Assembly: GCA_049796515.1 (NCBI GenBank)
Contig: JBAREU010000222.1
Location: 1-49,490 of the forward strand
Direction of reading: 5' to 3'
Origin: Solirubrobacterales bacterium
GTDB taxonomy: Bacteria > Actinomycetota > Thermoleophilia > Solirubrobacterales > 70-9
DNA: 49,490 nt
Shown here: positions 9,723 to 41,161 of the stretch, piece by piece
Layout of the letters: each line of letters starts with the position of its first letter
How positions within the stretch are numbered: position 1 is the first letter of the stretch
Program-made: the position numbers and the translations under genes
The notes under the pieces: generated by a model
Told to the model about the DNA's origin: nothing
What the model saw: only the letters and a program-made list of their open reading frames with translations
Database searches by the model: none

Positions 9723-9744
9723 TAAGAAGCTCCTGCAAAGAGGA
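9669..9744 (+). repeat. att core, copy 1 of a perfect 76-bp direct repeat (anticodon loop to 22 nt past the tRNA 3' end)
   Basis: Base-for-base identical to 22828-22903. Confidence 0.9.
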
Positions 9745-9968
9745 ACGTTTCGAGCAAAACCAGGCATCGCCCGCCGTACTGAGTCGCGGTCCATTGCGGA
9801 CCATTTCGGCAGCAATGGGACGTACCTCGGCTTCTCTACGGAGTGCCCCAGGCGTGGACGGGAGGTTCCCCCGCGCAGGAGAAGACCGCCGGTTTTGTTC
9901 CGATGAACCCCACAATGCGGCTGGAAGGAACTCAAATCCCCCCCGTGAGGCACGCGAAAGGAGGAGGA

Positions 9969-14185: not shown

Positions 14186-14242
14186 GGGCTCAGTGAAGCA
14201 ACAATCACCGTCCGAGTGGGGCGGCGTGGAAAATGGCAACCG

Positions 14243-20677: not shown

Positions 20678-20762
20678 CGAAGTCGATGATCGCAGCCCCC
20701 CAACGCCCGATAACCCCGCCTTACGTAGACCAGGGGTCGCTACCGCAGCGCCTGCCGCGATG

Positions 20763-22743: not shown

Positions 22744-22814
22744 AAAAATCCGCGGACCGATTTGCGGACCTCCAAATCAGTAACTTACGTGACCTCAGAG
22801 CACCTCAGGTGACC
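22744..22814 (+). promoter_or_regulatory. att-arm segment with tandem (T/C)(T/C)GCGGACC motifs (candidate integrase/Xis arm-type sites), island 1 right arm
   Basis: CCGCGGACC at 22750 and TTGCGGACC at 22762. The segment is roughly 80 percent identical by eye to 33521-33590. TTGCGGACC also occurs at 9794 and 22952 upstream of both integrases. Confidence 0.45.
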
Positions 22815-22827
22815 TGAGAGAGTCGTA

Positions 22828-22903
22828 TTGAGGGCCTTGTGCCCCTAACGGGGCGTGGAGGTTCGACTCCTCTCAGCCGCATAAGAAGCTCCTGCAAAGA
22901 GGA
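22828..22903 (+). repeat. att core, copy 2 of the 76-bp direct repeat (3' tRNA-Leu half without a 5' half)
   Basis: Identical to 9669-9744. The upstream sequence does not form a tRNA 5' half. Confidence 0.9.
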
Positions 22904-23134
22904 GCACTTCGATCAAAACCACGAATTTCGGCACTGCTGCCCTGTGGTCCATTGCGGACCGTTTTGGCAGCAATGCCGCACACCTGGGCCGCACCACGAG
23001 AGTGCCCAGGCGTGAGCAATGCGTTTGCTCACGCAGGGGAAGACCGCCGGTTTTGTGCCCGAGGAGCGCGTCGATGCGGCTGTCCGGAGCCCGGAATCCA
23101 TCCCTCCGCCAGGGGGCATGTCTAAGGAGGAACA

Positions 23135-24439
23135 ATGGATGACAAAGCCAGTATGCGCCGCCCGCACGGGACCGGCACCCTTTATGTCCAAGCGAGAGCG
23201 AACGGCCGAGAGGTCTGGTACGGACGCTGGTATCTGGGCGGCCGGCGGGTCAACCGTCGCCTCGGTCCCAAGCTGCACCGCGGCGCTGGAAAGGGGCTGA
23301 ACCGCACCCAGGCCGAGGCCGAGCTACGTCGGCTAATGGTTCGCGAGCGCCCACCCGAGGCCGGCGCGAGCATCTCCTTTGCGAGCACCGCGGAATTGAT
23401 GCTCCGCGAACTCGAATCACTCGGGCGCAAGGCGACGACGCTCGACAACTACCGGGCGATCCTTCGCGCTCACCTGCTGCCTCGCTTCGGCGAGCTCATG
23501 GTCAACCGGGTTAGGAAAAGTGACGTCGAAAGCTTCATGACCAAGCTCACCGCGGCCGGCAAGGCAGAGAGGACGCGCTCGGGCATCTTCAAGCTCCTCT
23601 CACAGGTCTTTACCTTCGCCGAGCGCCAGGGTTGGTGCGAGCAGAATCCGTGTCGCTCCGTGCGGGGGCCCAGGGTGCGGGAATGCTCAGAGATCCGGTA
23701 CCTCAGCCAACCGGATTTCGAGGCGCTGATCGCCGCGGTCGACGTCTTCGAGGAACCCTTCGGATCGACTGACGGGGCGATCTTCCTGACCGCGGCGATG
23801 ACCGGGATGCGCCAGGGAGAGCTCCTCGCACTGCGCTGGCGGGACGTCGACTGGGAGGCGGAACGGATCCGCGTGCGCCGTAACTACACTCGCGGTCACT
23901 GGTCGACGCCGAAGTCGCGCAGCGGCGAACGCTCAACGCCTCTTGCGAGCCGAGTCGCGGACGAGCTGCGAGCCCATCAGCTGCGCTCCCGATTTTCGGG
24001 CGAGGACGACCTCGTCTTCGCCAATCCGCTGAGCGGCGAGGTGCTCCCCCACGGCCCGCTTGTACGGCGGTTCAGGAAGGCGCTGAAGGCCGCGGGCGTG
24101 CGCAGGGTCCGCTTCCATGACCTCCGCCACACCTTCGGCACGAGGATGGCCGCTTCTCCCGACGTGCCGATGCGCAAGGTCCAGGAGTGGATGGGGCACC
24201 GCGACTACCGGACGACGCTGCTTTATGCCGACTACGAACCTGGAGGCAGGGAGAGTGCCCTGGTGGACGCGGCCTTCGCGAGCAAGCCTCCGGCAGACCG
24301 GGGAGAGCGGATCCGAACTCGCATCAACCAGCGCCTGTTGCGCTTGCGGAAATCCTCCCTGCTCGGCGGGGTTAGTCGAAGCCAGCGACTCCGAGCCCGA
24401 CACGTTCGCCAGCCCGACCGAGGTCCCGATCCCAGGTGA
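23135..24439 (+). CDS. Tyrosine recombinase / phage-type integrase (island 2)
   Basis: ATG 23135 follows TAAGGAGG. It is collinear and, by eye, about four-fifths identical to the island 1 integrase (same RHR-Y motifs). The C-terminal tail overlaps the convergent vapC by 68 nt. Confidence 0.9.
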   Translation: MDDKASMRRPHGTGTLYVQARANGREVWYGRWYLGGRRVNRRLGPKLHRGAGKGLNRTQAEAELRRLMVRERPPEAGASISFASTAELMLRELESLGRKATTLDNYRAILRAHLLPRFGELMVNRVRKSDVESFMTKLTAAGKAERTRSGIFKLLSQVFTFAERQGWCEQNPCRSVRGPRVRECSEIRYLSQPDFEALIAAVDVFEEPFGSTDGAIFLTAAMTGMRQGELLALRWRDVDWEAERIRVRRNYTRGHWSTPKSRSGERSTPLASRVADELRAHQLRSRFSGEDDLVFANPLSGEVLPHGPLVRRFRKALKAAGVRRVRFHDLRHTFGTRMAASPDVPMRKVQEWMGHRDYRTTLLYADYEPGGRESALVDAAFASKPPADRGERIRTRINQRLLRLRKSSLLGGVSRSQRLRARHVRQPDRGPDPR

Positions 24440-24794
24440 CCAGGACGACTTCCGGGTCGCCGAGTTCGAGCGCGGTGGCGAGGTGGACCGCGTCATATCC
24501 ACGCAGTCCCATGCTTTCGGCGTGCTCGCCAGCGCGAGCTGCAAGTTCCTGGTCGACGCCGACCGTGACCAACTCCCCGTAAAGCTGCTCGAAGACCGCA
24601 AGTGCATCTCGGTGCTCGTCCTCCCCCAGCCGGTCCAGCCGTCGAGCGGCCGCGAGGGCAGCACGGCCCTCCGGATAGGCGAGGACGCTCGACACCGCGG
24701 GATAAGCGCTCCCCCAGAGCTCAGCCGCCAACTCAGAACCGTCCTCGACGACGACCAGCTTGACCAGCGCCGAGGTGTCGAAGTAGAAGATCAG
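24372..24794 (-). CDS. vapC: PIN-domain toxin VapC; apparent non-canonical CTG start
   Basis: The translation LIFYFDTSALVKLVVVEDGSELAAELWG...YDAVHLATAL has the PIN acidic residues. No ATG/GTG/TTG exists in frame between the upstream stop and the first PIN Asp. CTG overlaps the antitoxin stop (CTGA). Confidence 0.7.
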   Translation of the reverse strand: MIFYFDTSALVKLVVVEDGSELAAELWGSAYPAVSSVLAYPEGRAALAAARRLDRLGEDEHRDALAVFEQLYGELVTVGVDQELAARAGEHAESMGLRGYDAVHLATALELGDPEVVLVTWDRDLGRAGERVGLGVAGFD

Positions 24795-25069
24795 GCCCGC
24801 TGCTCGGAGACGAGGCCGGAGACCGATCCGGTGCCCTTCACCTGCGCCGATCGAGAAGGGCGCTTCCCCTGTGGCATCCGCACCAGGCCACGGCGCGCGA
24901 GAGCATCAAGCGGCCGCTCACCGAGCCCACTCAGGCGTGCCACGGGGCGTCCGCGGCGGGTGACGACGATCTCGCCTCCCCTCTCCACTCGCTCCAGGTA
25001 CTCGCTGAGGCGATCGTGGAGCTCACGGACTCCAACTTCGCTCTCGGGCTGATGTAGCGTCATACCCAC
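24791..25069 (-). CDS. Phd/YefM-family antitoxin
   Basis: VGVRELHDRLSEYLERVERGGEIVVTRRGRPVARL is a typical Phd/YefM N-terminal domain. It overlaps vapC by 4 nt. Confidence 0.75.
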   Translation of the reverse strand: MGMTLHQPESEVGVRELHDRLSEYLERVERGGEIVVTRRGRPVARLSGLGERPLDALARRGLVRMPQGKRPSRSAQVKGTGSVSGLVSEQRA

Positions 25070-25174
25070 AGGCTAGCAGCTACATACGCGGCGAACTAAA
25101 TCCGACCTAGGTCTTGCGGAGCACCTCGACGCAAGAAAGCTCCGCACCCTGCCCCGGCCCTCGAGAAATCGCTC

Positions 25175-25840
25175 TTACAGACGCGCTTCCATATCGTCCA
25201 GCACTGACCGCCACAGAGCCGGATACACGCCACCTTCCATTACCTCCGGCGGGAGGGGAGTCTCAAACTCGCGCGCCAAGCGCTGGGCCTCTCCCCCCGG
25301 CCTACCGATGGGATAGGCCGGGCGTCCCGGACACATCTCATTGAAGAGCTTGAACTCGTCGAGTATCCCCTCCATACCGCCGATGAACACCGCCGCTCCC
25401 GGTTTGGTTTCGCTGAGCATCTGACGCCGCATAATGTCAAGGCTTTGGCTCCATGATCCGGGCTCTGGATGCTCACCGGGGGCAGCTTCAGTCCAAGTTA
25501 CCGTGCCGATTCCATCCGCCTCAAAGCGTCGGGTCGCCGGCGGCAGGACATCCTCAAAGAGCTGCGACTGATAAACGGCGATCCGCTCTCCGTGCTCCGC
25601 TGGAAGCTCCGCGGCCACGTAGAGCAGCAGCGGAGCGATGGTCGGATGGGCGGCGCTGACTAGACCAACGCCAGCGGTAAGAAAGACCCGAGCGAGGGAG
25701 ACCACGGCGTCGGTGATCTCAAGAGGATCAGCCTCTCCATCCCATCTTTCCGGATTGGGAATGCTTGCCGACACGAAGATCGAGACACCCTCAAGGGATG
25801 GCCTCCCTCGGGCCTCGTTAAATATCAGGGACCCGTCCAC
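25175..25840 (-). CDS. Stand-alone SLOG/STALD-like (LOG-Smf/DprA-type Rossmann) protein; candidate nucleotide-signal sensor
   Basis: VSIFVSASIP (beta1), GVGLVSAAHPTIAPLL, and AVFIGGMEGILDEF (a GGxxGxxxE LOG-like motif). The start is GTG 25840 or TTG 25897, and either overlaps the upstream TIR gene. Confidence 0.5.
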   Translation of the reverse strand: MDGSLIFNEARGRPSLEGVSIFVSASIPNPERWDGEADPLEITDAVVSLARVFLTAGVGLVSAAHPTIAPLLLYVAAELPAEHGERIAVYQSQLFEDVLPPATRRFEADGIGTVTWTEAAPGEHPEPGSWSQSLDIMRRQMLSETKPGAAVFIGGMEGILDEFKLFNEMCPGRPAYPIGRPGGEAQRLAREFETPLPPEVMEGGVYPALWRSVLDDMEARL

Positions 25841-27009
25841 TGTCCTCCGATCGCGTTCTCGGGCATCACAACCAAGTCTCGACCCCCCGCAGCCCAAGCC
25901 AGGTGAGCTCTGAGACGCTCTCGAAGTACTCGGGCGCTATGCACAAGAACCGCCGAGGAACCGTCGGACGACTCGGACCGAGCCAGATCGAGGAGTTGGA
26001 GGTCTTCTGCGGTCGGAAGTCGTGGCGTGACACCCAAGATAGTTGACCGCGTGTCGCACTCGACCGATACACGCCAAGCAGGCAATGGGACACTAGAACA
26101 TCCTGCGGCGGACGCCGCCTCTTCGATACTTCGGATCAGCATCCGGCGGCGACGCACAAGCCCCTGCGCATGAGCAGCCTCAATGCGCGCGACCACTGCA
26201 TCCAACGCTGCGTCGGTCAGGGTGTCGTAGCCATGCTCATCAATCACCAGGTCCGATTTCCTCAGAGGGACTCGGGGCAGACCATTGCTGCCTGGCACCG
26301 GCTCAGGGTCGCCGGGCCACTGCAAGATAAGGGTGCCCATCGTGTGGCTTAGGGCATAGTCAACCTCGTCGAAGACCCACTCAGACGTTGAAGCCAGGGG
26401 CGTCTCGAGAAGAAGCAGGAACGCATGATCCTCAAGAGCGTCGGCGATCTCCTCTTGGACTTGTCTGCCACTTCGGATCGCAAACCGATCAATGAACGGC
26501 ACGAACCCCATATGGGAGAGTCGATCATGCAACTGCTCGGCTGCGCCGAGACCATCGTCCCGCTTGTGACTGATGAAGACACGGCGCTGCCGATCCTCAA
26601 TTCCCAACTCCTCCAGCAGAACTCGTGCTAGGCGGCGAGCCGGGTCCTCGCCGGCCCATTCCCACCCGTTGACAGATGCCAGCATCGCTGGGATTGACAC
26701 CGAAAACTCGGCGAGATCATCGATCACCGGGAACACGACCAGGCCTTCGTTGAAGGCCGACTCAATTCTTAAGGCGACCCCAGCATCGGTCGCCGCAACC
26801 TGACTTCCAAGATAGACGGCGAGCGACGGAACGTCTGGAGTGGGCGTCGCCTCAGTAAGGGTAATTGACACGGTCTGGTGAAGTCCCACCTCCCTAAGCT
26901 CCGCCGCAACTGCCTGCTGGATCTCCCTCATCCGCTCCTCTCGATCGAGCTGGATGACCTGGATCTCATAGACGGTGTTCGTCATGGCCGTGCGATGACT
27001 TAAGGACAC
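25825..27009 (-). CDS. TIR-domain protein with unassigned N- and C-terminal domains
   Basis: The central segment RRVFISHKRDDGLGAAEQLHDRLSHMGFVPFIDRFAIRSGRQVQEEI...LLLLETPLASTSEWVFDEVDYAL is a canonical bacterial TIR (TIR_2-like) with the conserved Glu. About 135 aa on each side are unassigned. The start is GTG 27009 or ATG 26985. Confidence 0.7.
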   Translation of the reverse strand: MSLSHRTAMTNTVYEIQVIQLDREERMREIQQAVAAELREVGLHQTVSITLTEATPTPDVPSLAVYLGSQVAATDAGVALRIESAFNEGLVVFPVIDDLAEFSVSIPAMLASVNGWEWAGEDPARRLARVLLEELGIEDRQRRVFISHKRDDGLGAAEQLHDRLSHMGFVPFIDRFAIRSGRQVQEEIADALEDHAFLLLLETPLASTSEWVFDEVDYALSHTMGTLILQWPGDPEPVPGSNGLPRVPLRKSDLVIDEHGYDTLTDAALDAVVARIEAAHAQGLVRRRRMLIRSIEEAASAAGCSSVPLPAWRVSVECDTRSTILGVTPRLPTAEDLQLLDLARSESSDGSSAVLVHSARVLRERLRAHLAWAAGGRDLVVMPENAIGGQWTGP

Positions 27010-27578
27010 TTGCTATTGGATCTGCGCAAATCCCTGCTGTTGTCGACCTTATCTCCTTTGTCATCTCGCGCCTGAAAAGCGGCCTCGATGTCCGTTCGAA
27101 GGCCCGAGACTGAAGATGGATACGCCTTATACAACGCGTAGGAGGCAGCCGAATCGTCTTTGACCCAATTGTCCCGGACCCGAGCTGGCAGGGTGGCGGA
27201 GTTGTTCATCGAAGGGAGCGGGATAGCTAGCAATCCGCTGCGCTTGTTACTGCTGTCATTACGAAGTGACGATGACAACTCCCAGTCAATGAACTTTCGC
27301 GACCACGTACATCCGCCAAGCAGCACAATCGTCACCGTAGAGTCAGTGAGGTACTTCTCCCGAATCTTGCGCTTGATGTAATCATCATCGTCGCTATCGA
27401 CAAAGTCGTCCTCCTCCGTCACCCCAACAGTGCGTGGAATAAACTCGGTGCCGAATTTATCTAGAAATTCCGTTACCTCATCCAGATCATCTACCCGATA
27501 GGACACGAAACACTTGTGCCGCGTTGCATCTGCCTTTCGCTCCGACGCGCTCAGAGCCACCGCCTGCGCATGGCGCAT
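27000..27578 (-). CDS. ThsB-type TIR-like (DUF1863) protein
   Basis: KCFVSYRVDDLDEV...IKRKIREKYLTDSTVTIVLLGGCTWSRKFIDWELSSSL...SGLLAIPLP parallels the Bacillus ThsB layout (VFFSFHY...TSVTCVLIGSQTFNRRWVRYEI). ATG 27578 follows AAGGA. The ORF is open to TTG 27635. Confidence 0.7.
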   Translation of the reverse strand: MRHAQAVALSASERKADATRHKCFVSYRVDDLDEVTEFLDKFGTEFIPRTVGVTEEDDFVDSDDDDYIKRKIREKYLTDSTVTIVLLGGCTWSRKFIDWELSSSLRNDSSNKRSGLLAIPLPSMNNSATLPARVRDNWVKDDSAASYALYKAYPSSVSGLRTDIEAAFQARDDKGDKVDNSRDLRRSNSKCP

Positions 27579-27660
27579 CTGATCCTTGACACTCACGACT
27601 CGCCCCTTTCCACTCGGTCTGTCTAGCGCCAGCAACCAGCCGGACTCATGATGGTCGGTA

Positions 27661-28035
27661 CTAAGACAGAAGGTTTTTCAGTTGCGGCCAGCTCCAGCGA
27701 TACAGCCGACCCGCTTCAGGTACCGGTTTAGGGTTCGTGTCTTTGTAACCAATGACCTGACGGACGGGGACCTTAAGATCATTCGCGATAGCCACCTCAG
27801 CAAGCACACCAGGAGAGCGATGGGTCTCAGGGCCGACCATGACCAACACGACATCGCAGCGGGCTATCCGTTTCGCCGCTTTTTCCTTCCACGTTTTCTG
27901 CGGTGCGGGCTCATTCAATGACCAGTTCTCAACCTCAAACGGAGAGTCAGAGTTTTTCGCCTGTGCAAGGACGAACGTCTTCAACTTCTGGTCGTTGTCG
28001 AAGTCAAAGCTGACGAATACTCGGGTCTTGGCCAT
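27661..28035 (-). CDS. ThsB-type TIR-like (DUF1863) protein, short
   Basis: MAKTRVFVSFDFDNDQKL...AAKRIARCDVVLVMVGPETHRSPGVLAEVAIANDLKVPV. 124 aa, in a low-G+C segment. Confidence 0.7.
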   Translation of the reverse strand: MAKTRVFVSFDFDNDQKLKTFVLAQAKNSDSPFEVENWSLNEPAPQKTWKEKAAKRIARCDVVLVMVGPETHRSPGVLAEVAIANDLKVPVRQVIGYKDTNPKPVPEAGRLYRWSWPQLKNLLS

Positions 28036-28044
28036 TTGGCGACC

Positions 28045-28479
28045 CTAGTCCATGAGACAGCCGATGTCTGGAGCTATGCCGCAAACTGCGTCTTCCGACA
28101 ATAGTGTTTCTAAAATCCGGCGATCCCAACCTCGCTGATCCTTGAAATCAGGGCGACTCACCGCTGCTGGCACTGTTAGCAAGAAGGTATGGTGCTCTCT
28201 CTGTCTGCTCCTCACCCCGCATGTGCGGTTGGTCAGGCAGAAGACTCGAACGGCCGCTTCGGTTAGGGCATCGCGCTCAGCGGGCCGGCGGCGGATTGCG
28301 TCGTCCTTCGTGAGGACAATCCAGTCGTTCTCGCCGGCGTCTCGCAGCCAAACCTCGTCGGCGAGGAGATGGCCGGACTTCTCGCCGTAGACCTCGGCCA
28401 TCGAGCGGGCGGAGAGACCGGCCGCACACCGCCCCGCCACCCCAACGCCCGATAACCCCGTCTTATGAAGAGTCTCCAA
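28045..28479 (-). CDS. PIN-like (DUF5615/Mut7-C-like) domain ORF, in frame with the upstream helicase across a single TGA
   Basis: LHKTGLSGVGVAGRCAAGLSARSMAEVYGEKSGHLLADEVWLRDAGENDWIVLTKDDAI aligns by eye with DUF5615 (LLDQGLP..LRAAGHD..V..G....sDeevl..A..egrvlvTkDkDf). TTG start. Same reading frame as 28495-31623. Confidence 0.35.
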   Translation of the reverse strand: METLHKTGLSGVGVAGRCAAGLSARSMAEVYGEKSGHLLADEVWLRDAGENDWIVLTKDDAIRRRPAERDALTEAAVRVFCLTNRTCGVRSRQREHHTFLLTVPAAVSRPDFKDQRGWDRRILETLLSEDAVCGIAPDIGCLMD

Positions 28480-28494
28480 AGACCCTCCCCGCGT

Positions 28495-31400
28495 TCAAGT
28501 CCGGGGCTGACCGTGCGGGAGGCGGTCGGCGAGCACGTCGAAGTATCGGTGGCGCATCCATGCATTCCGATCGCCGATTACATACAGCCGGTGCCTGGCG
28601 CGACTGACCGCGACGTTGATCAGGTTGGGCCTGCTCGCCGCCCAGGCTCGTGCGCCGTCCCGAGCGGGGTCTGAGCCGAGCACCAGGATCACGATGTCGG
28701 CCTCCTTGCCCTGTGCGGTGTGGATCGTCCCCGCCTTGAGCCCGGGGTGTTGGCGAGCGCGTTCGCGAAGGCGCTGGGCAACACCACGGAACGGCGTGAT
28801 CGCCATCGCCTGAGATAAGTCGAACCCGACCCCTTGGAGGTGGGTGAGAATCCGATCGACCTCCTCGCCCTCAGCGGGAACCCAGTGCCCCTGTGAGCTG
28901 TGCGAGCTGACATCGATCCACTTGCTCTGCGGCAGGGTGGGATAAAGAGTCGCGAACTCTTGCGCCAGCGCGGGGTCGGTGGCATCGACCATCAACCCGT
29001 CGTAGGCAATCGTGTTGGAGAGGTCGAACATTGGCTGGTCGCAGCGGCGATGGACGGTCAAGGGGGCGCCAATCCATACCGGCCGCTCGACTCCCGGCAG
29101 CGTCGTGCCCAGTCGGTTGAGGCGGTCGGCAAGGGTCTGAACCGAACTGCGTCCCGTCAGCCACTCCTCCCCCACCCCGTAATGGGCGCGGATCGCCTGC
29201 TCGGCCGGGAACGGAATCGTCGTGATCGGCTCCAACTGCAGCGGGTCGCCAACCACCACCGCACGTCGAGAGCGCCACAACGCCCCGACCGCGTTCTGCG
29301 GAGTGGCCTGACCTGCCTCGTCGACGAGCAACCAGCCAAGCGCCTCGGCACTGAGCGGGCCGAACAGCCGCGAGACAGAGGCGAACGTCGTCGAGACCAC
29401 CGGGACGAGGAGGAAGAGCGCCTGCCAGGCGGCGAGCACCGCGTCCTCTGGAAGGCTCGACGGAGCCCTACCGGAGACGATCTCCATCGCACCGTCGAGG
29501 CTTTCGCGCATCGGCTTCGCGGCATGGACGAGAAATGCCCTGTGCAGCCGGACCGCCGCCAGGAACAACTCGGTGCGGGCCCGGTTCCACTCGACGTCGG
29601 TCCATGGCGCTTGTCGCTCCCGCGCCTGCCGATCCCACAGCCACTTCCCATCGGGCAGTTGAGCACTGGGTAGTTCGCGGTAGCGCGAGAGAACTTGGCG
29701 GCATTCGTCAAGGGCGCCCTCGATGGCCGCAACGACAGCGGTCGCCTCGCCCTCGGTCCGCATCTCCTCGTCCAGTGCCCCGACCTCATCACTGGTCTCG
29801 CGCAGCAGCGTGTCGATAGCGGCGATATCAGCGGCAAGCTGGCGGTCGTGGGCTCGCCACTCGGCGCGCGCCCGGAGCCTGAGGATCCAGGGTCGGCGCT
29901 GCCGCGCGTCCTCGTGGGCTTCGATCCGGCGGCGGCGCTCGTCCTCCTGCGACCGCAGTACGCCGTCCAGCCGATCGCGACGCGGGCGTGATGCGGCGAC
30001 CCGCTCGCGGGTAGTTCTCTCGGTCTCACGAGCCGTCTCGAGTTCCGATTCCAACTCGGCGAGGCGGTCGAGCGCCTCCCGCACAAGTAGGCGGTCATCC
30101 CGGATCGCCGCCGCACGATCGCGAGCCCGCTCGAACGCCGCCACGGCCTCCGCCCAGGAGGAATCCCCGGGATGCGCCTCCCATGCCGTGAGGAGGTCGC
30201 GGAGTCCTGAGGGCGGCGGGGGCCGATCGTCGTCGCCCTTCCGCTGTTCGGTCCACCAAACGGCGTTGACGAAGTCTCGTCGGTTCTTCTGGTTGCCAAG
30301 CCGCGCGGCGATCAGGGCCCAGGCGGGCTGATCGGCCCTGCCCGAAGAGCTGTGGCTCGTGCGCCGCCCGGCGCTCATCGCCCGTTCGGCGAGCGCCGGA
30401 AAGTAGTCGACGTGCTCTACCTGCTCTCGCCAGGGTGCGTCGATCGCCTCCCCGGATGGGATCTCGAGCGTAACGTTCTCGACCGCTCCGTTGTTGCTGG
30501 AGGCCACCACGAGCTCGAAGCCCGTCAGCTCGGGCCTGAGGCGATGGACGACGCGCTGATACCCCGTCGTCTTCCAACGATGGGGCTCATCGATGAAGGC
30601 GTCCGAGGGATCGGGCAGCGCTGCCAGCCGCTCGGCGCGCTCGGTCACGAGCGCCGCAATCAGATCGCGCAGCATCGTCGTCTTGCCCGTTCCGGGTGGT
30701 CCATTGACGGCGAAGAGATGGCCGCCGGCGCCTGGCATCGCCACGGCCTCATCGACGGCGAGCTGCTGTCCCAGCGCCAGCGGGCGGTCCGGACTCGCGG
30801 GCCAGCGGCCGAGGGGGACGCGATCGGGATCGGTGGCTCGCCGGACATCGTCCAGCTCGGTTCGCACATCGACGCGATCGCGGATGTCGAGCTCGGCGCT
30901 CGACCGCATGTAGTCGCGCAGTGCAGAGCCGACATTCCCTTGATCGGCGGCCGCTACCACCCGAGCGAGATCGTCGGCGATGAAGCTGTTGAGGAAGTCG
31001 TGCTCTACCTCTTCCGCGGTCCGCCGCGCGACGATTTCGCTGCGGACCCGGATGCCGCCGACGGAAAGGACATCGGCGACCTCTAGGGCGTGGATGGCCG
31101 CTGCACGGCATTCCGTGAGCGCTGTCCAGTCGAGGACCGCAGCCTCATCGCCCTCTTCGCCGAGGTACATCTCCTCGAGCTGCATTGCAACTTCCGCTTC
31201 GAGATCGGCGAAGCCGTCGAGCCAGTCGGCCGACTCCGGACCCGGGTCGAGCGCCCGGGCAGTGGCCCACGCGCAAGCCGAGAGCACCGCAGAGCGCTCC
31301 AGCATGACGCCACGGTCAGTGACCGCGAGCGCAAGCAGGGCACTGGAGCCTGACGGCCGCTCCTCGAAGCTGTCGTCTGCGGCAGGAAAGACGCCATTCA

Positions 31401-31623
31401 GCGCCGTGAACACTGCTTCGCGCGGAAACGTCCCGACGTAGACGGTGTGCCGCCACGCCTGGTCTTTCGTCAGTCGCTGCCCCTTGAGCGGGTGGCCGGC
31501 ATCCCAGGGCAACGGTTTCTCGGCTGCGAGGTCGAACACCCGCTGCGACGGATCGGCCGCCGGGATCGCCGGCGGGCTGAACATCTCGACAGCTCGCCAA
31601 AATTCAATGACCTTCCCCTGCAC
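28495..31623 (-). CDS. SF1 helicase, Upf1/DNA2-NAM7-like, with large N-terminal unknown domain and coiled-coil insert
   Basis: Walker A NGPPGTGKTT, motif II LLVDEAGQ, VVVGDPLQLEPI, GTIHTAQGKEADIVILVLG, NVAVSRARHRLYVIG. There is an Arg/Glu-rich coiled-coil segment between motifs I and II. Confidence 0.85.
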   Translation of the reverse strand: MQGKVIEFWRAVEMFSPPAIPAADPSQRVFDLAAEKPLPWDAGHPLKGQRLTKDQAWRHTVYVGTFPREAVFTALNGVFPAADDSFEERPSGSSALLALAVTDRGVMLERSAVLSACAWATARALDPGPESADWLDGFADLEAEVAMQLEEMYLGEEGDEAAVLDWTALTECRAAAIHALEVADVLSVGGIRVRSEIVARRTAEEVEHDFLNSFIADDLARVVAAADQGNVGSALRDYMRSSAELDIRDRVDVRTELDDVRRATDPDRVPLGRWPASPDRPLALGQQLAVDEAVAMPGAGGHLFAVNGPPGTGKTTMLRDLIAALVTERAERLAALPDPSDAFIDEPHRWKTTGYQRVVHRLRPELTGFELVVASSNNGAVENVTLEIPSGEAIDAPWREQVEHVDYFPALAERAMSAGRRTSHSSSGRADQPAWALIAARLGNQKNRRDFVNAVWWTEQRKGDDDRPPPPSGLRDLLTAWEAHPGDSSWAEAVAAFERARDRAAAIRDDRLLVREALDRLAELESELETARETERTTRERVAASRPRRDRLDGVLRSQEDERRRRIEAHEDARQRRPWILRLRARAEWRAHDRQLAADIAAIDTLLRETSDEVGALDEEMRTEGEATAVVAAIEGALDECRQVLSRYRELPSAQLPDGKWLWDRQARERQAPWTDVEWNRARTELFLAAVRLHRAFLVHAAKPMRESLDGAMEIVSGRAPSSLPEDAVLAAWQALFLLVPVVSTTFASVSRLFGPLSAEALGWLLVDEAGQATPQNAVGALWRSRRAVVVGDPLQLEPITTIPFPAEQAIRAHYGVGEEWLTGRSSVQTLADRLNRLGTTLPGVERPVWIGAPLTVHRRCDQPMFDLSNTIAYDGLMVDATDPALAQEFATLYPTLPQSKWIDVSSHSSQGHWVPAEGEEVDRILTHLQGVGFDLSQAMAITPFRGVAQRLRERARQHPGLKAGTIHTAQGKEADIVILVLGSDPARDGARAWAASRPNLINVAVSRARHRLYVIGDRNAWMRHRYFDVLADRLPHGQPRT

Positions 31624-31785
31624 ACGGCCCGACGATACTTAGGGACAAGGCACGTGGGTGAACCAGCGCAACCGCCGGGAGCCCGGGACTCGCCGGTGAC
31701 GCAACGCGAGATGACATGCCTCGCAACAGAGAGACTCATGAACTCCGGGGTCGTTTCGGTTGACCTGACGCTGGCTGGCCGCAGC

Positions 31786-33432
31786 CTAAAGTCGACGGGG
31801 GATCTTGAACCGGAAGACGGTGGGCGAAGAATCGACCAAACCAGCCGGGCTCACGGCGCTGGCCTCGAAGACATGCCAGCCGGGCTTCAAATTGCGATAG
31901 CGGACGATTGGGCCACACGACCTAAGACGGCGAGCGTCTAGCTTGCAACGGAAGCTCGCGCCAGATTCGCTCGAAGCAAGGACGAAGCGGGCGAAACCGC
32001 GTCGAGGCCGAACCTTTCTTCGGGCAATGCGGGTGTTCGGTGCGATGGCGCCAGCAAGAGAGAGCCCAGGGAGAGGCAGTCGCTCGGTGCTCGTGTCGAT
32101 TTCCAAGTTGAAGCCTCCCGTCGCACCATTGAAACCATCAACGGCGAGCCGGTAGACCGTACCTGCGTCGATGTTGAGAGCCACTCCCCCTTGCCTGTTG
32201 GCCGGCAGACACCCTGGACTCACGGGATTGTCGCTTTGGGCTATCGACTGCAGGCTCTGCAGCGAAGCTCCGGTGTAAACCGCGAGAAGGGGACGGAAGC
32301 TTGCCTGGCAGACACTGAAGCGCACCGAGCCGGTGATCGGCGCTTTCCAGGCGAACCAGATCGATGCCCCACCCGCATTGCCGGCGTGGTTTGGCTCTCC
32401 GACCTGCTTCGTCGCACCGATGTTGGCGTAACCAATGATCAGGCTTTTAGAGCCCTGCAGATCACCAGATGCCTCGAAGTCATCGTTGGCAGGGAAGATC
32501 GAAAGATGGAACCCTGGATCGGCCATCGCCCCCGCACCAGTCAGGGTGCTCGGTTTGCCATCGATCGCGATCCAGTAAGTGACGCCCGCGTTCGCCATGA
32601 AGGAATAGCGGCAGTCGGGTTCGCCACTAAAGCCGACAACGGGGCTCAGGGCATCGACCGACGGCCCCGTGTAGACAGCGACAACCGTTTGATTCGGTAT
32701 CTGCCCGCCGCAGGCCTGGATGAAGGCGCCGTTCGTGCGCGGTGCGGTCCATTTGAACCAGATCGATGATCCGCCGCTCCTCCCGCGGTGGTCGGGCTCA
32801 CCAGCCTCTTTCGTCGCCCCCCAGTTCCCGGAGTCGAGGGTGAACGCAGTCCCCGTTCCCGGGATCGGGGTCGCGTCTGCGAAATCGTCGTTGGCAGGCT
32901 GGCCTTGAGACTCGACCTGCAGCTCAATGGCTCCCTCCCCATCGGGGGATGGCTCCCCGCTAGCGTGATAGCCGTTGCCGTCGACCTGCAGCTGGTACTT
33001 GGTGTCAGCGGTCGCCCTGAACGTGACCTCGCTGCCACCGATACAGCCTGACGTAGGACCAAAGCTGTAGCGGTTGCTTGACACCTCGGTCAATGCGTCG
33101 AAGGCGCTTCCCGTATAGACGGTGAGGATGGTGTCGGGCTCGCTTCCACAAGTTCCGATCGTGATGTGCTCCGTGTCCGGCGCTTCCCATTCGAACCAGA
33201 TCGAGTGACCAGCCGGAACGAACCCAGAATGGCTCGGCTCGCCGACCTCGACCGTCGCTTCGGAGTTGGTGGTGCTCAGCGCGATTGGGAGTGCCGAGCC
33301 GAGCTGTTGACGATCCGAGAAGTCGTCATTGGGCGGGGCGGACGCAACCGAAAGCGAGGGCGTAACACAAGCAACCGTCGCGACGACAGCCACAGAGCCC
33401 AAGATTCCCCCACGCGCTCGCCCCAGCCTCAT
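31786..33432 (-). CDS. Secreted protein with three tandem PPC-like (pre-peptidase C-terminal type) repeats and a C-terminal Ig-like module
   Basis: Signal peptide GGILGSVAVVATVACV. Three units of about 130 aa each open with P(P/A)NDDF. The tail is FRCKLDARRLRSCGPIVRYRNLKPGWHVFEASAV. The start is taken at ATG 33432 (ORF open to 33462). Confidence 0.6.
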   Translation of the reverse strand: MRLGRARGGILGSVAVVATVACVTPSLSVASAPPNDDFSDRQQLGSALPIALSTTNSEATVEVGEPSHSGFVPAGHSIWFEWEAPDTEHITIGTCGSEPDTILTVYTGSAFDALTEVSSNRYSFGPTSGCIGGSEVTFRATADTKYQLQVDGNGYHASGEPSPDGEGAIELQVESQGQPANDDFADATPIPGTGTAFTLDSGNWGATKEAGEPDHRGRSGGSSIWFKWTAPRTNGAFIQACGGQIPNQTVVAVYTGPSVDALSPVVGFSGEPDCRYSFMANAGVTYWIAIDGKPSTLTGAGAMADPGFHLSIFPANDDFEASGDLQGSKSLIIGYANIGATKQVGEPNHAGNAGGASIWFAWKAPITGSVRFSVCQASFRPLLAVYTGASLQSLQSIAQSDNPVSPGCLPANRQGGVALNIDAGTVYRLAVDGFNGATGGFNLEIDTSTERLPLPGLSLAGAIAPNTRIARRKVRPRRGFARFVLASSESGASFRCKLDARRLRSCGPIVRYRNLKPGWHVFEASAVSPAGLVDSSPTVFRFKIPRRL

Positions 33433-33520
33433 TAGACGAAAGCCTACCGAGCGGTGATGCAAGGGACGGGTCGAAGCTCGGCTTGGCTGAGTCGGACTGT
33501 CGCGCCCACCAAAACAGCAG

Positions 33521-33590
33521 AAAAATTGCGGACCTTTCTGCGGACCTCCAGATCGGTAGCCTGCGTAATCTCAGAGCACCTCAGATCACC
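33521..33590 (+). promoter_or_regulatory. att-arm-like segment with tandem TGCGGACC motifs (homologue of 22744-22814)
   Basis: TTGCGGACC at 33526 and CTGCGGACC at 33538, then ...CTCAGAGCACCTCAG as in the island 1 right arm. Confidence 0.4.
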
Positions 33591-38526: not shown

Positions 38527-38576
38527 GATCTGGCTTATAGGCCATTTTCGCTCTGCTATGCGGCACGGACTCAGCC

Positions 38577-38629
38577 TGAGGGCCTTGTGGGTGGAAGCAC
38601 CCGTGATGGTTCGACTCCATTCAGCCACA
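38577..38629 (+). repeat. Diverged 3' half of a tRNA-Leu (att remnant); no 5' half
   Basis: TGAGGGCCTTGTG-GGTGGAAGCACCC-GTGATGGTTCGACTCCATTCAGCCACA begins at the same anticodon-loop position as the 76-bp repeats. Differences in the variable-arm and T-stem are compensatory. Confidence 0.7.
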
Positions 38630-38827
38630 TGGCGAACTGAAATGTGTATGCAATTTCGTTCCGGCGTAGGTGATATGACTAGCAATACCCGTTTGCTCAG
38701 GTCATCCTTCTCACTAACGTGATTGCGATTGCGTTCACTGTGGGATAGAGCTCCCTGCACAGGGAGGCGGGGTCGTGACAAAGGGGATCACCTGGGTGAA
38801 GTGACAATCGCAGACAGGGAGTTATAG

Positions 38828-40870
38828 GTGTCACCTCAGCCCAAAGCAATTGAACTGACGAAACTGGCGGACCGCTTGATAGTCCGTCACTTGCGCATTT
38901 CCGTTCCCCAGCCAAAAGTTCGGCACGAACTTCAGCGAGATCGGGCCCAAGAGCAGCTTCTCGAGAAACGCGTCCGCTGTATCGCCGTCGTCGGCGCTGG
39001 TGCAAGCGCGCCGCTGCTCAAGCGAGGAGATGAACTGGCAACTCAGCTAGAGGACCATTTCTCGAGCCAGGAAAAAGAGCGCAAGGCCGAGCTGTTTCGA
39101 CTGCAGCGCGTCTACGGGTTGTATGCCGAGGACTTCGAGACGCGCCTGGCAGCGCTGAGTCGAACGCCTGAGATCACCCAGCATGTTCGCGAAACGATCT
39201 CGGATTGGTACGCCTACAGGCATCCGACGATCCTCGGATACGAGCTGCTGGCCCATCTGCTCAAGCATCGCTTCCTCGATGCGATAATCAGCTTCAACTT
39301 CGATGAGCTCTTGGACCAGTCGCTAGACGACGAGCTGGGCAAGAACGGATACCGCAGAATCGTCTCCGAGCGCGACTGCCTCGGCGTCGAGAGCAATGCC
39401 GACTCGTCCGAATACGTGCCGATCTACATCAAGCTGCACGGCACGGCTACCGAGCCCGACAGCCTTCGCCTAACCCGCGAGGCCTACTACAAGCTTCCGC
39501 AGAAACTGATGCAAGTGGTGGAGGAGCTCCTCGAGAGCGACCTGACGGTGGTCGTGAACGTCGGGTCGTCGATGACCGGGTTCGATCTCCATCGCCTACT
39601 GCGAATCCCGGAGCAGCTAGAGATCTATGACCTCAGCCCGAAGTCGATCAGCGACACCGTCCAAGTGGCGATCGGCTCTGAGCGCAAAAGTCCGCTCCCG
39701 GACTCCTTCCATAAAGACGAGAAGCGCGAAGCGCCGACTTTCGACCTGCCGGCGGACGAACTGACCAGCAGGGCAAAGGCCACCTGCGATCGCTGGCTAA
39801 AGCAGCTCGTCCACGAGATCGAGGCCCGTTCGGGCGAGAACATGGAGTCCCGGTTCCTCGCGAGCCTCGTTCGCTTCCGATCGGTCGATCGGCACGAGGC
39901 GGTGGCCGAGATCCTGGGACCCGAGGCGACGCTTAGCCGCTGGACGCAGGATCCCAAACGCTGGCGGCAAGACTACGTCGACTACCTCCGGCAACGCACG
40001 ATCATCGAGCTGGCCTTCTCGGGCGCCAAGGCGCGGGGACTGGCGCAACTCTCGTGGTTGGCAGTCGACCGCTGCGGGACCTACTTCGAGCTATACCGGC
40101 ATGAAGGGCGGGACTTCGAGCTGCAAAATTGGAACACCCTGCGGGTGGCCGGGGGCTTGGACGAGCACGAATGGCTGCCGGACGTCGCGGAGTCCCAACC
40201 GTCGCTGTGCAAGCCCTCCGCCGGCCCAACCCTCAATCTCGACAACGGAAAGTGGGCGCTGCGTGAGTTTGTGCCGAAAGCGCTGGCCGAACATTTGAGC
40301 ATGCACGTGGGCAAAGACCGAAGGCGAACCGAACGCCGCCTCTCCCGCGCGCTGAAGAACCTGCAGGAGGGCTCCGAGGTGGAAATCGACGCCACCGACG
40401 ACCAGGTGTGCGCAAAGGCATTCGACCACCCGCTGACCTTGCCGACGATCACCTCTCTGAGGCTCTTCACGATCGGCCTCTTCAAGGGACTCAAGCCGGA
40501 GGACGAGGTCTACATCAGCTGCGAGACCGGCGAATGGCTGTTGAGGGACAAGACGATGTTCGACCTGCTCTCTAAACAAGATCGGGTTGAGGTGATCACC
40601 GCTTTCGACTTCAAGAGCGAAGAGCTGGACCACGAGTACGGCGACCGGCTGACGCTGCTTCCGATCGATCCCTGGCGGCACAATCGCCATATGACGATCG
40701 TTTGCCGCCGCGATGTTCCTCGGCGGGCCATCTACTTCGCGCGCCGGCTGCGCACCCCGATGATCACGCCCGTGTACCTCAGGGACCCAGACGACGCAGC
40801 ACGGGTCAAGCGCGCCTATGATCTGATGCGCAGCCAGGACTCCACGAGCGCGCCGGTGACCAATGTCTAG
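38828..40870 (+). CDS. SIR2-like (SIR2_2 family) domain protein with about 400-aa unassigned C-terminal region
   Basis: IAVVGAGASAPLL, LLAHLLKHRFLDAIISFNFDELLDQSL and YIKLHGTATEPDSLRLTREAY reproduce the GAGxS / NxD / HG order of defence-type SIR2 domains. GTG start after AGGGAG. Confidence 0.65.
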   Translation: MSPQPKAIELTKLADRLIVRHLRISVPQPKVRHELQRDRAQEQLLEKRVRCIAVVGAGASAPLLKRGDELATQLEDHFSSQEKERKAELFRLQRVYGLYAEDFETRLAALSRTPEITQHVRETISDWYAYRHPTILGYELLAHLLKHRFLDAIISFNFDELLDQSLDDELGKNGYRRIVSERDCLGVESNADSSEYVPIYIKLHGTATEPDSLRLTREAYYKLPQKLMQVVEELLESDLTVVVNVGSSMTGFDLHRLLRIPEQLEIYDLSPKSISDTVQVAIGSERKSPLPDSFHKDEKREAPTFDLPADELTSRAKATCDRWLKQLVHEIEARSGENMESRFLASLVRFRSVDRHEAVAEILGPEATLSRWTQDPKRWRQDYVDYLRQRTIIELAFSGAKARGLAQLSWLAVDRCGTYFELYRHEGRDFELQNWNTLRVAGGLDEHEWLPDVAESQPSLCKPSAGPTLNLDNGKWALREFVPKALAEHLSMHVGKDRRRTERRLSRALKNLQEGSEVEIDATDDQVCAKAFDHPLTLPTITSLRLFTIGLFKGLKPEDEVYISCETGEWLLRDKTMFDLLSKQDRVEVITAFDFKSEELDHEYGDRLTLLPIDPWRHNRHMTIVCRRDVPRRAIYFARRLRTPMITPVYLRDPDDAARVKRAYDLMRSQDSTSAPVTNV

Positions 40871-40968: not shown

Positions 40969-41161
40969 CATGCCGTTGAGCGCGATCAGCCGGACTTCCG
41001 GATCGAGAGGACCGGCGCGGCTGCCTGGGTCGCTGCGAGCTTCATCTCCTCACCTCCTCCCATTTTTAGTAAGGAAATTCGGAGCGACTGAATGTAGCGC
41101 GCGGCCGGAAGGGGTACGGCTTAAGTTTCGTTTGGATAACTACATAGACTTCAGACGCTCA

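What the first reader, a model, noticed from the sequence alone, without database searches (positions are those of the whole stretch)
25175..31623. Thoeris-like operon with three TIR proteins, a stand-alone SLOG sensor and a helicase/PIN-like module
Six co-directional minus-strand ORFs are packed with overlaps or gaps of 25 nt or less. In order they are an SF1/Upf1-like helicase (1042 aa), an in-frame PIN-like ORF, two short ThsB-type TIR-like proteins, a 394-aa protein with a central canonical TIR flanked by two unassigned domains, and a SLOG/STALD-like protein of about 220 aa. All three TIRs keep the conserved Glu after the WxxxE-like position (AEV, WEL, DEV). In described Thoeris types, as I recall them, the signal-binding module is fused to its effector: SLOG-SIR2 in type I, Macro-TM in type II. 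Here the SLOG domain stands alone and no SIR2, TM or protease effector lies in the operon. The only candidate effectors are the helicase/PIN-like pair or the TIR NADases themselves. The locus is cargo of an integrase island. This is the best candidate in the window for an undescribed defence architecture.
Basis: partly seen in the sequence, partly recalled or inferred. Interest (0 to 1): 0.85.

Follow-up and report, generated by a model that had tools for sequence, protein, structure and literature searches.

The report
Type III Thoeris beside unrelated helicase
The TIR and SLOG genes are real, but they form an actinobacterial copy of the already described type III Thoeris anti-phage system, and the neighbouring helicase and PIN-like ORF are unrelated island cargo.

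Summary
Six co-directional minus-strand ORFs encode an SF1 helicase, a PIN_10-like ORF, two ThsB-type TIR proteins, a three-domain TIR protein and a stand-alone SLOG protein. The interpretation does not hold. NCBI's curated equivalog models name the SLOG protein (25175-25840) as Thoeris type III ThcA and the three-domain TIR protein (25825-26985) as ThcB4, both above the curated cut-offs. Type III Thoeris, "multiple TIR proteins plus a SLOG effector", was reported in Pseudomonas aeruginosa in 2024. Its signalling mode was still called uncharacterised in a December 2025 preprint. ThcB4 and ThcA are adjacent in 27 of 27 related loci with room to show it, and extra ThsB-type TIR genes accompany them in most. 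The helicase and PIN ORF appear in none. None of 18 loci with close helicase relatives carries TIR or SLOG genes. The closest one shares both flanks with the window but has different cargo between them. The PIN ORF is an internal 173-nt remnant of a 135-aa toxin gene. The new points are natural ThcB4-ThcA fusions and SLOG-caspase fusions. These suggest that ThcA is the signal receptor and ThcB4 its SARM1-like NADase partner. The two accessory TIRs resemble type VI and type IV Thoeris TIRs rather than those of the P. aeruginosa system.

The parts
25175..25840 (-). thcA: stand-alone SLOG (cluster 3) protein, 221 aa from the GTG at 25840. It is the type III Thoeris SLOG component, called ThsD in the Yirmiya et al. 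nomenclature.
   Evidence: Sequence evidence: NCBIfam NF058525 Thoeris_type3_ThcA scores 165.3 bits against a cut-off of 110, covering 1-183 of 184. Pfam LD_cluster3 gives 1.7e-33. Structure evidence: the AF2 model has pLDDT 91.7, and its best PDB match is the BcThsA SLOG domain bound to 3'cADPR, 7uxs, E 3e-6. The GGMxGIxxE and PGG motifs are invariant.
25825..26985 (-). thcB4: three-domain TIR protein, 386 aa. It has an N-terminal alpha/beta domain (1-127), a central SARM1-like TIR (about 135-225), a long helix, and a C-terminal alpha/beta domain (295-386). It overlaps thcA by 16 nt.
   Evidence: NCBIfam NF058526 Thoeris_type3_ThcB4 scores 295 bits against a cut-off of 220, covering 1-369 of 375. 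PADLOC ThsB PDLC00434 matches the full length at 1.2e-38. It is 35% identical to the P. aeruginosa L0872 type III TIR4 domain. A profile search hits the SARM1 TIR at 6.5e-7. The AF2 model has pLDDT 90.6, with SARM1 TIR at TMt 0.76. It lies next to thcA in 27 of 27 loci.
27000..27635 (-). Accessory ThsB-type TIR protein, up to 211 aa. The true start may be internal.
   Evidence: Pfam ThsB_TIR 2.2e-14. Orthologues (E 1e-74 to 1e-92) lie directly upstream of thcB4 in 10 actinobacterial loci, and DWE(I/L)SSSL is invariant in them. The closest characterised TIR is a type VI Thoeris TIR, 44% over 126 aa, E 2e-23.
27661..28035 (-). Accessory ThsB-type TIR protein, 124 aa.
   Evidence: Pfam ThsB_TIR 1.8e-7. 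PADLOC ThsB 2.1e-5. Relatives lie next to thcA in L028 and L031. The closest characterised TIR is the Pseudomonas sp. 1-7 type IV TIR, 32% over 109 aa, E 2e-14.
28232..28404 (-). Internal remnant of a PIN_10 toxin gene, inside the 144-aa ORF 28045-28479. It is not part of the Thoeris system.
   Evidence: Only 173 nt match the intact 408-nt PIN_10 gene of L041/L044 (80% nt identity). The N-terminal ~35 aa, including the FFVDRSLG acidic motif, and the C-terminal ~43 aa are missing. Pfam covers profile positions 26-83 of 84. In L041 the intact gene follows an HTH_66/DUF433 antitoxin-like gene.
28495..31623 (-). SF1B Upf1/IGHMBP2-like helicase, 1042 aa, with a coiled-coil insertion. It is a neighbouring, independent island gene with a Mokosh MkoC-like core.
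   Evidence: Pfam AAA_11 and AAA_12. PADLOC MkoC 1.1e-58 over profile positions 246-946 of 1136. There is no PLD HxKxxxxD motif. Eighteen relatives at 60-87% identity (17 of them 69-87%) have no TIR or SLOG neighbour.
22828..22926 (+). Direct repeat of the tRNA-Leu 3' half, an att-type island boundary. It is followed by the integrase at 23135-24439 (+) and a Phd/YefM-PIN(VapC) toxin-antitoxin pair at 24372-25069 (-).
   Evidence: 94% identity over 99 nt to 9669-9767. A 25-nt exact match is not expected by chance. Integrase. Phd antitoxin 3.7e-9 and PIN 1.9e-7.

Best explanation
Window 25175-28035 (minus strand) is a four-gene type III Thoeris anti-phage cassette: two accessory ThsB-type TIR genes, thcB4 and thcA. 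It sits as cargo in a tRNA-Leu-associated integrative island of a high-GC actinobacterium. The upstream helicase and the PIN_10 remnant are separate island genes.

**Proposed mechanism (inferred, not shown).**
1. On infection, one or both small ThsB-type TIR proteins turn NAD+ into an ADP-ribose-derived signal.
2. The stand-alone SLOG protein ThcA binds that signal in its conserved GGMxGIxxE/PGG pocket.
3. ThcA works as one unit with the translationally coupled ThcB4, whose SARM1-like TIR domain then depletes NAD+ and stops phage growth.

On this reading ThcB4 plus ThcA is a split version of a TIR-SLOG effector. My estimates are about 0.9 for the identity as type III Thoeris, about 0.9 for excluding the helicase and PIN ORF, and about 0.45 for this effector model.
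For: **Identity.**
- ThcA and ThcB4 pass the curated NCBIfam equivalog cut-offs over their full lengths.
- The published P. aeruginosa L0872 type III TIR4 domain hits the same ThcB4 model at positions 129-259. It aligns to the window protein at 35% identity.
- Relatives of that TIR4 at 71% identity sit directly upstream of PF18180 SLOG genes and among further TIR genes.

**Conserved core.**
- ThcB4 and ThcA are adjacent in 27 of 27 loci with room.
- Accessory ThsB TIRs vary in number (0-3), clade and orientation.

**ThcB4 and ThcA as one unit.**
- Natural ThcB4-ThcA fusions exist: P0267, P0369 and P0408. P0267 is 41% identical over 379 aa of ThcB4, followed by LD_cluster3.
- The two genes overlap.

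**SLOG as receptor.**
- The best structural match is the ThsA SLOG domain bound to 3'cADPR.
- The same SLOG family is fused to a caspase (P0403) and to a ThsB TIR (P0308).
- Type IX Thoeris uses a 'TIR and SLOG' effector (10.64898/2025.12.03.692087, Table S2).

**ThcB4 TIR as NADase.**
- Its closest solved relative is the SARM1 TIR.
- The catalytic Glu is invariant.

**Exclusion of the helicase and PIN ORF.**
Against: - No experiment exists on this locus.
- Published work names the SLOG protein itself as the effector and calls the signalling mode uncharacterised.
- One locus, and possibly a second, shows no recognisable accessory TIR within 10 kb. In L004/L007 a 140-aa TIR-like ORF sits at the usual accessory position but was not tested against Pfam. 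L018 shows none.
- The accessory TIRs here belong to clades whose characterised members make different molecules: type VI makes 2'cADPR and type IV makes N7-cADPR. A highly conserved SLOG would then have to read several signals, unless product specificity does not follow clade.
- ThcB4's two extra domains could be phage sensors, which would make ThcB4 the signal producer.
- The SLOG fold also includes enzymes, namely LOG and PpnN-type nucleotide hydrolases.
Confidence: 0.6

Rival explanations
1. Type III Thoeris works in the classical order. ThcB4 is the phage sensor and signal-producing TIR, and its N- and C-terminal domains do the sensing. The stand-alone SLOG protein ThcA is the sole effector, for example a LOG/PpnN-like nucleotide N-glycosidase or an oligomerising toxic protein. 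The small ThsB TIRs are extra sensors that widen phage range.
For: - The literature lists the SLOG protein as the effector (ThsD) of type III.
- The ThcB4-ThcA pair can occur without a recognisable accessory TIR (L004/L007, L018).
- ThcB4 carries two extra conserved domains of unknown function.
- SLOG-fold relatives include LOG phosphoribohydrolases.
- ThcA keeps the invariant GGMxGIxxE and PGG motifs.
Against: - Signal synthases are not normally fused to their receptors, yet full ThcB4-ThcA fusions exist. In known systems (SIR2-SLOG, TIR-SAVED, TIR-STING, type IX TIR-SLOG) the fused partner of the receptor is the effector.
- The same SLOG family is fused to a caspase, which fits a sensor role.
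- No enzymatic SLOG cluster-3 member is known.
Confidence: 0.3
2. One reading: all six ORFs form one new defence operon, in which the helicase/PIN pair is the effector arm of a TIR-SLOG signalling module.
For: - The six ORFs are co-directional and tightly spaced.
- One distant type III Thoeris relative (L030) also has a large SF1 helicase (DUF4011/AAA_11/AAA_12) immediately downstream.
Against: - No helicase or PIN hit appears in any of 29 ThcA loci.
- None of 18 helicase loci has TIR or SLOG genes.
- L032 shares the helicase and the Phd flank but holds other genes in between.
- The PIN ORF is an internal fragment lacking both ends.
- GC content steps from 0.68 to 0.54.
- Helicase relatives sit beside other cargo, such as a DUF433-PIN toxin-antitoxin pair and SIR2-HerA.
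Confidence: 0.03
3. The cassette is a decaying, non-functional remnant in a rearranged island.
For: - A pseudogene fragment lies immediately upstream.
- The island shows nested insertions and repeats.
- Only two accessory TIRs are present, against three in P. aeruginosa.
Against: - All four ORFs are intact and full length relative to their homologues.
- Catalytic and motif residues are kept.
- The proteins are 55-70% identical to widespread relatives (ThcA up to 94%), with no frameshifts.
Confidence: 0.05

Closest known systems
Type III Thoeris of Pseudomonas aeruginosa L0872 (ThcA + ThcB1-4; van den Berg et al. 2024, Cell Host Microbe 32:1427; SLOG effector renamed ThsD in bioRxiv 10.64898/2025.12.03.692087)
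   Same: - It has a stand-alone SLOG cluster-3 protein next to a roughly 375-aa three-domain TIR protein (ThcB4), plus further TIR-only genes and no fused effector.
- Both core proteins pass the curated ThcA and ThcB4 models.
- The published TIR4 domain aligns at 35% identity.
- It is reported as an anti-phage system and is inhibited by the phage protein TadIII-1.
   Different: - The window has two accessory TIRs, not three.
- They are not orthologues of P. aeruginosa TIR1-3. The 211-aa TIR is closest to type VI TIRs and the 124-aa TIR to a type IV TIR.
- The host is an actinobacterium.
- ThcA is about 35 aa longer at the N-terminus than the 184-position model.
Type IX Thoeris (ThsB + ThsJ 'TIR and SLOG' effector; bioRxiv 10.64898/2025.12.03.692087)
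   Same: A signalling TIR is combined with an effector that joins a TIR to a SLOG domain. This is the arrangement I propose for ThcB4 plus ThcA. Natural ThcB4-ThcA fusions exist.
   Different: In the window the TIR and SLOG are two overlapping genes, not one protein. Whether ThsJ's SLOG is cluster 3 was not tested. In type IX, 3'cADPR is produced but did not trigger toxicity.
Type I Thoeris (ThsB + ThsA SIR2-SLOG/STALD)
   Same: TIR proteins are combined with a SLOG-fold receptor. The ThcA model's best PDB match is the ThsA SLOG domain bound to 3'cADPR.
   Different: The operon has no SIR2 domain. The SLOG is LD_cluster3, not STALD, and there is no sequence-level hit to any solved SLOG. No PADLOC ThsA model matches.
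Mokosh type II MkoC (for the helicase only)
   Same: The SF1 Upf1-like helicase core matches the PADLOC MkoC model at 1.1e-58.
   Different: Only profile positions 246-946 of 1136 are covered. There is no PLD HxKxxxxD motif. The N-terminal 280 aa and the coiled-coil insertion are unassigned.

Membership tests
Thoeris type III | Stand-alone SLOG protein ThcA (NCBIfam NF058525 equivalog, cut-off 110 bits) | tested here: met
   165.3 bits, E 1.2e-48, model positions 1-183 of 184.
Thoeris type III | Three-domain TIR protein ThcB4 (NCBIfam NF058526 equivalog, cut-off 220 bits) | tested here: met
   295 bits, E 6.8e-88, model positions 1-369 of 375. The published P. aeruginosa TIR4 domain hits the same model.
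Thoeris type III | thcB4 directly upstream of thcA on the same strand | tested here: met
   There is a 16-nt overlap in the window. The same order is found in 27 of 27 related loci with upstream sequence and in relatives of the P. aeruginosa TIR4.
Thoeris type III | Additional TIR-only proteins in the operon (ThcB1-3 in P. aeruginosa L0872) | tested here: inconclusive
   Two ThsB_TIR genes are present, so 'multiple TIR proteins' holds. They are not orthologues of P. aeruginosa TIR1-3, with best matches to type VI and type IV TIRs. NCBIfam returned no hit to a ThcB1-3 model, either for the window's two TIRs or for the published Pa TIR1-3 domains, so none could be tested.
Thoeris type III | Protects against phage | not testable with these tools
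   Protection is reported for the P. aeruginosa system only, as cited. The primary paper is not held.
Thoeris type I | ThsA effector with SIR2 fused to a STALD-type SLOG | tested here: not met
   The SLOG protein has no SIR2 domain and hits LD_cluster3, not STALD. It has no PADLOC hit at all. The SIR2_2 protein at 38828-40870 is 7 kb away, on the other strand and beyond an att-like repeat.
Thoeris type II | Macro-domain plus transmembrane effector | tested here: not met
   None of the six proteins has a Macro domain hit.
Thoeris type IX | Single effector protein containing both TIR and SLOG | tested here: not met
   TIR and SLOG are separate genes in the window. Fused relatives exist elsewhere (P0267, P0369, P0408).
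Mokosh type II (helicase) | MkoC: helicase plus PLD-family nuclease in one protein | tested here: not met
   The helicase core matches at 1.1e-58, but there is no HxKxxxxD motif. The ends of the profile are not covered.
PIN_10 toxin | Complete PIN-like domain including the N-terminal acidic motif | tested here: not met
   Only profile positions 26-83 of 84 are covered. The 173-nt internal match to the intact 135-aa gene of L041 lacks both ends.

The most novel reading that the evidence does not exclude
ThcB4 plus ThcA is a split TIR-SLOG NADase effector. It can be plugged onto interchangeable signal-producing ThsB clades: type I-like in Pseudomonas, and type VI-like plus type IV-like here. The cluster-3 SLOG would then either read several cADPR isomers or read a new common molecule. 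Either way, the role now assigned to the SLOG protein (sole effector) would be wrong, and type III Thoeris would be a TIR-to-TIR relay.
Probability: 0.4. Interest if true: 0.55.

Novelty: new member of a known kind. Interest (0 to 1): 0.3.

Why it matters
As a claimed new defence architecture it does not stand. The four TIR/SLOG genes already have a name and curated models, and the helicase is a bystander.

Its remaining value is as a lead on an open question, namely how type III Thoeris signals and what executes defence when the only non-TIR protein is a bare SLOG domain. Three findings here give a concrete, testable hypothesis that ThcA is the receptor and ThcB4 the NADase:
- the ThcB4-ThcA pairing was present in every locus examined;
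- natural ThcB4-ThcA fusions exist;
- SLOG-caspase fusions exist.

They also show that the accessory TIRs are swapped between clades that elsewhere make different signals.

Tried and rejected
- **PADLOC-DB 2023 on the SLOG protein.** No hit, which at first suggested novelty. The newer NCBIfam release overturned this.
- **Primary paper.** Searching for 'LDcluster3' and 'ThcA' found nothing, and the 2024 primary paper is not held. Type III Thoeris is therefore described only through citing papers and Table S1 of 10.64898/2025.12.03.692087.
- **Sequence search of the PDB with the SLOG profile.** No hit even at E 10. Only the fold search linked it to ThsA SLOG, DprA and LOG.
- **Whole-model fold search of ThcB4.** It matched only the central TIR domain with confidence. 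The other hits, up to about 345 aligned columns with TM below 0.3, are not credible, so the N- and C-terminal domains remain unassigned.
- **Promoter and terminator scan of 24600-32000.** Nothing above the shuffled expectation.
- **Helicase-PIN as an interrupted fusion.** I considered a stop-codon-interrupted fusion because the ORFs share a frame. I rejected it because intact relatives have a separate 135-aa PIN_10 gene about 900 nt downstream, after a DUF433 antitoxin gene, and the window keeps only the middle of it.
- **PLD motif in the helicase.** Absent.
- **SIR2_2 protein at 38828-40870 as a missing ThsA.** Rejected. It has no SLOG, lies on the opposite strand 7 kb away, and sits beyond a tRNA-like att remnant.


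Full report
**1. Observation**

| ORF | Pfam result |
|---|---|
| Helicase, 28495-31623, 1042 aa | AAA_11 4e-14, AAA_12 3.7e-11 |
| 144-aa ORF, 28045-28479 | PIN_10 5e-13, profile positions 26-83 of 84 only |
| 124-aa ORF, 27661-28035 | ThsB_TIR 1.8e-7 |
| 211-aa ORF, 27000-27635 | ThsB_TIR 2.2e-14 |
| 394-aa ORF, 25825-27009 | TIR_2 5.5e-13 at residues 144-221 |
| Last ORF, 25175-25897 | SLOG cluster 3 (LD_cluster3) 1.7e-33, not STALD |

- The helicase has Walker A at residue 308 and a DEA box at 765. Its closest solved relative is IGHMBP2.
- The likely true starts are the ATG at 26985 for the three-domain TIR, giving 386 aa as in the database gene call, and the GTG at 25840 for the SLOG protein, giving 221 aa, since relatives are about 219 aa.
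- The catalytic Glu is present in all three TIRs. It is invariant in the homologues of the 386-aa and 211-aa proteins.
- The domain-level observation is therefore confirmed.

**2. Identity of the TIR/SLOG genes**

PADLOC-DB (2023) matches the 386-aa protein over its whole length to a ThsB model at 1.2e-38, but it has nothing for the SLOG protein. The newer NCBIfam release settles the question:
- The SLOG protein scores 165 bits on the equivalog model 'Thoeris type III anti-phage system protein ThcA' (cut-off 110).
- The 386-aa protein scores 295 bits on 'ThcB4' (cut-off 220).
- Both matches are end to end.

[quoted passage not shown] It cites van den Berg et al. 2024 and renames the SLOG effector ThsD. 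A review adds that its SLOG differs from the STALD type.

Three results tie the window to the published P. aeruginosa L0872 system:
- Table S1 of the Yirmiya et al. preprint gives the four L0872 TIR domains. TIR4 aligns to the window protein at 35% identity and hits the ThcB4 model at positions 129-259.
- Proteins 71% identical to that TIR4 lie directly upstream of PF18180 SLOG genes, among other TIR genes.
- The SLOG family is therefore the same in both systems.

**3. What is conserved**

Among loci fetched through ThcA homologues, every one with upstream sequence (27 of 27) has thcB4 immediately before thcA.
- The genome-collection loci are all Actinomycetota. The search patterns came from actinobacterial sequences, so this is biased.
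- Orthologues of the 211-aa TIR sit directly upstream of thcB4 in 10 loci (E 1e-74 to 1e-92).
- Other ThsB-type TIRs occur on either side and either strand, from none to three per locus.
- L004/L007 and L018 show no accessory TIR that my queries recognised. L004 does have a 140-aa ORF with a TIR-like look at the usual position.
- ThcA and ThcB4 are both well conserved, with most homologues 55-70% identical to the window proteins.

**4. The helicase and the PIN ORF are not part of it**

- Neither is found within 10 kb of thcA in any of the 29 loci.
- Eighteen metagenomic loci encode helicases 60-87% identical to the window's (17 of them 69-87%), and none has TIR or SLOG genes within 6 kb.
- The helicase of L032 is 88% identical at the DNA level. 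L032 also shares the Phd-antitoxin flank (window 24924-25084). Between them it carries 5.8 kb of other genes, of 882 and 431 aa with no Pfam family. The position is a variable cargo slot.
- In L041 and L044 the helicase is followed by an HTH_66/DUF433 gene, an intact 135-aa PIN_10 gene, and then SIR2-HerA.
- The window keeps only 173 nt (28232-28404) from the middle of that PIN gene. It lacks the N-terminal acidic motif and the C-terminal third, and the rest of the 144-aa ORF has no homology. It is a remnant.
- GC content also separates the parts: helicase 0.68, thcA and thcB4 0.60-0.62, the short TIRs 0.54.
- The helicase core resembles Mokosh MkoC (1.1e-58) but has no PLD motif. I treat it as an independent, possibly defensive, island gene.

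**5. Genomic context**

- tRNA-Leu lies at 9637-9722.
- Its 3' half is repeated at 22828-22926 (94% over 99 nt). A diverged third copy lies near 38575-38632.
- Two related integrases follow the first two copies.
- The Thoeris cassette therefore lies in the second of two tandem integrative islands, next to a Phd/VapC pair. The 'integrase island cargo' statement is supported.

**6. How it probably works**

*Shown here*
- ThcA has a confident SLOG fold (pLDDT 91.7). Its best PDB match is the ThsA SLOG domain bound to 3'cADPR, followed by DprA, LOG and TRPM2.
- ThcB4 is a three-domain protein (pLDDT 90.6) whose central TIR is closest to the SARM1 NADase TIR.

*New comparative evidence*
- A search of 1.84 billion representative proteins found 1316 cluster-3 SLOG relatives.
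- Three of the listed relatives are complete ThcB4-ThcA fusions. P0267 is 41% identical over 379 aa of ThcB4, followed by LD_cluster3.
- Others are a SLOG-ThsB_TIR fusion and a SLOG-caspase-SLOG fusion.

*Inference*
- In known signalling defence systems, the domain fused to the receptor is the effector: SIR2-SLOG, TIR-SAVED, TIR-STING and the type IX 'TIR and SLOG' effector (for the last; the others are established knowledge).
- I therefore infer that ThcA is the receptor and ThcB4 its NAD+-consuming partner, and that the small ThsB TIRs make the signal.

*Rival reading*
- ThcB4 senses phage and makes the signal, and ThcA alone is the effector, possibly an enzyme.
- This fits the published naming and the near-minimal two-gene loci.
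- I put the main model at about 0.45 and the rival at about 0.3.

*Complication*
- The 211-aa TIR is closest to type VI TIRs (44% identity, E 2e-23). Type VI systems use 2'cADPR.
- The 124-aa TIR is closest to a type IV TIR (32%, E 2e-14). Type IV systems use N7-cADPR.
- The P. aeruginosa accessory TIRs look like type I ThsB.
- Either product specificity does not follow these clades, or the SLOG receptor reads more than one molecule.

**7. Novelty and score**

The four-gene cassette is a new actinobacterial member of a described system that already has curated models. It is not an undescribed architecture. The six-gene 'operon' is a juxtaposition created by island rearrangement. Interest is modest. 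The locus is ordinary as a discovery, but the fusion and co-occurrence data bear on the still-open mechanism of type III Thoeris.

Noticed in passing
window 9637-9767, 22828-22926, ~38575-38632; integrases 9843-11222 and 23135-24439: Tandem integrative islands at tRNA-Leu. The tRNA 3' half plus 45 nt is repeated at 94% identity, and a third diverged tRNA-like copy follows. The two integrases are about 80% identical at the DNA level. GC content is 0.60-0.66 inside the islands and about 0.70 outside.
   Followed up: partly
window 20698-20729 and 28440-28471; also L041 10503-10534, L044 10496-10526, L040 11289-11325, L032 3436-3466: A 32-nt element (CCCCAACGCCCGATAACCCCGCCTTACGTAGA) occurs twice in the window. 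It is 91-97% conserved in unrelated metagenomic loci just downstream of the PIN_10 gene or the helicase. It could be a recombination or regulatory site marking the cargo slot.
   Followed up: no
window 22745-22814 and 33521-33590: A 70-nt direct repeat at 79% identity. It is also found immediately upstream of the helicase gene in several relatives (L034, L040, L041, L042, L044). This suggests the helicase normally sits at an island end, and that the 558-aa ORF was inserted in the window.
   Followed up: no
window 38828-40870 (+) and 40970-42436 (+): A 680-aa protein has a SIR2_2 domain (9e-8) and weak matches to PADLOC pAgo-associated SIR2 models. A 488-aa protein with no confident Pfam hit (both matches below the curated cut-offs) follows it. 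This may be another defence gene pair in a third island segment.
   Followed up: no
window 11387-14305 (-) and 14084-16057 (+): Island A carries a 972-aa protein with DUF4365 (restriction-endonuclease-like, 2e-19) plus TPR/HEAT repeats. It also has a 657-aa protein with a weak OLD-like TOPRIM match. Neither is assigned to a named defence system.
   Followed up: no
window 31786-33462 (-): A 558-aa ORF upstream of the helicase has three internal repeats spaced about 400-440 nt apart. It has no hit in Pfam, NCBIfam, PADLOC or PHROGs, and its GC3 is only 0.71, so its coding status is uncertain.
   Followed up: no
L030 3447-8756: In a contig carrying a close relative of the P. aeruginosa type III Thoeris, a 1769-aa DUF4011/AAA_11/AAA_12/MTES_1575 (Hhe-like) helicase lies directly downstream. 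This is a second case of an SF1 helicase next to type III Thoeris. It is probably defence-island clustering.
   Followed up: partly
L032 2831-8661: The closest helicase relative shares both flanks with the window but carries 882-aa and 431-aa genes with no Pfam family in place of the Thoeris cassette. These are candidate unknown defence cargo in the same slot.
   Followed up: partly
P0403 (799 aa), P0308 (371 aa), P0312/P0313: Cluster-3 SLOG domains occur fused to a caspase (SLOG-Peptidase_C14-SLOG), to a ThsB TIR, and to unassigned C-terminal domains. These architectures were not checked against the published Thoeris types.
   Followed up: partly
L035 5935-9153 and 9345-12500: Two tandem copies of the helicase gene are separated by a tRNA-Leu-like att repeat. 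This implies tandem integration of helicase-bearing elements.
   Followed up: no
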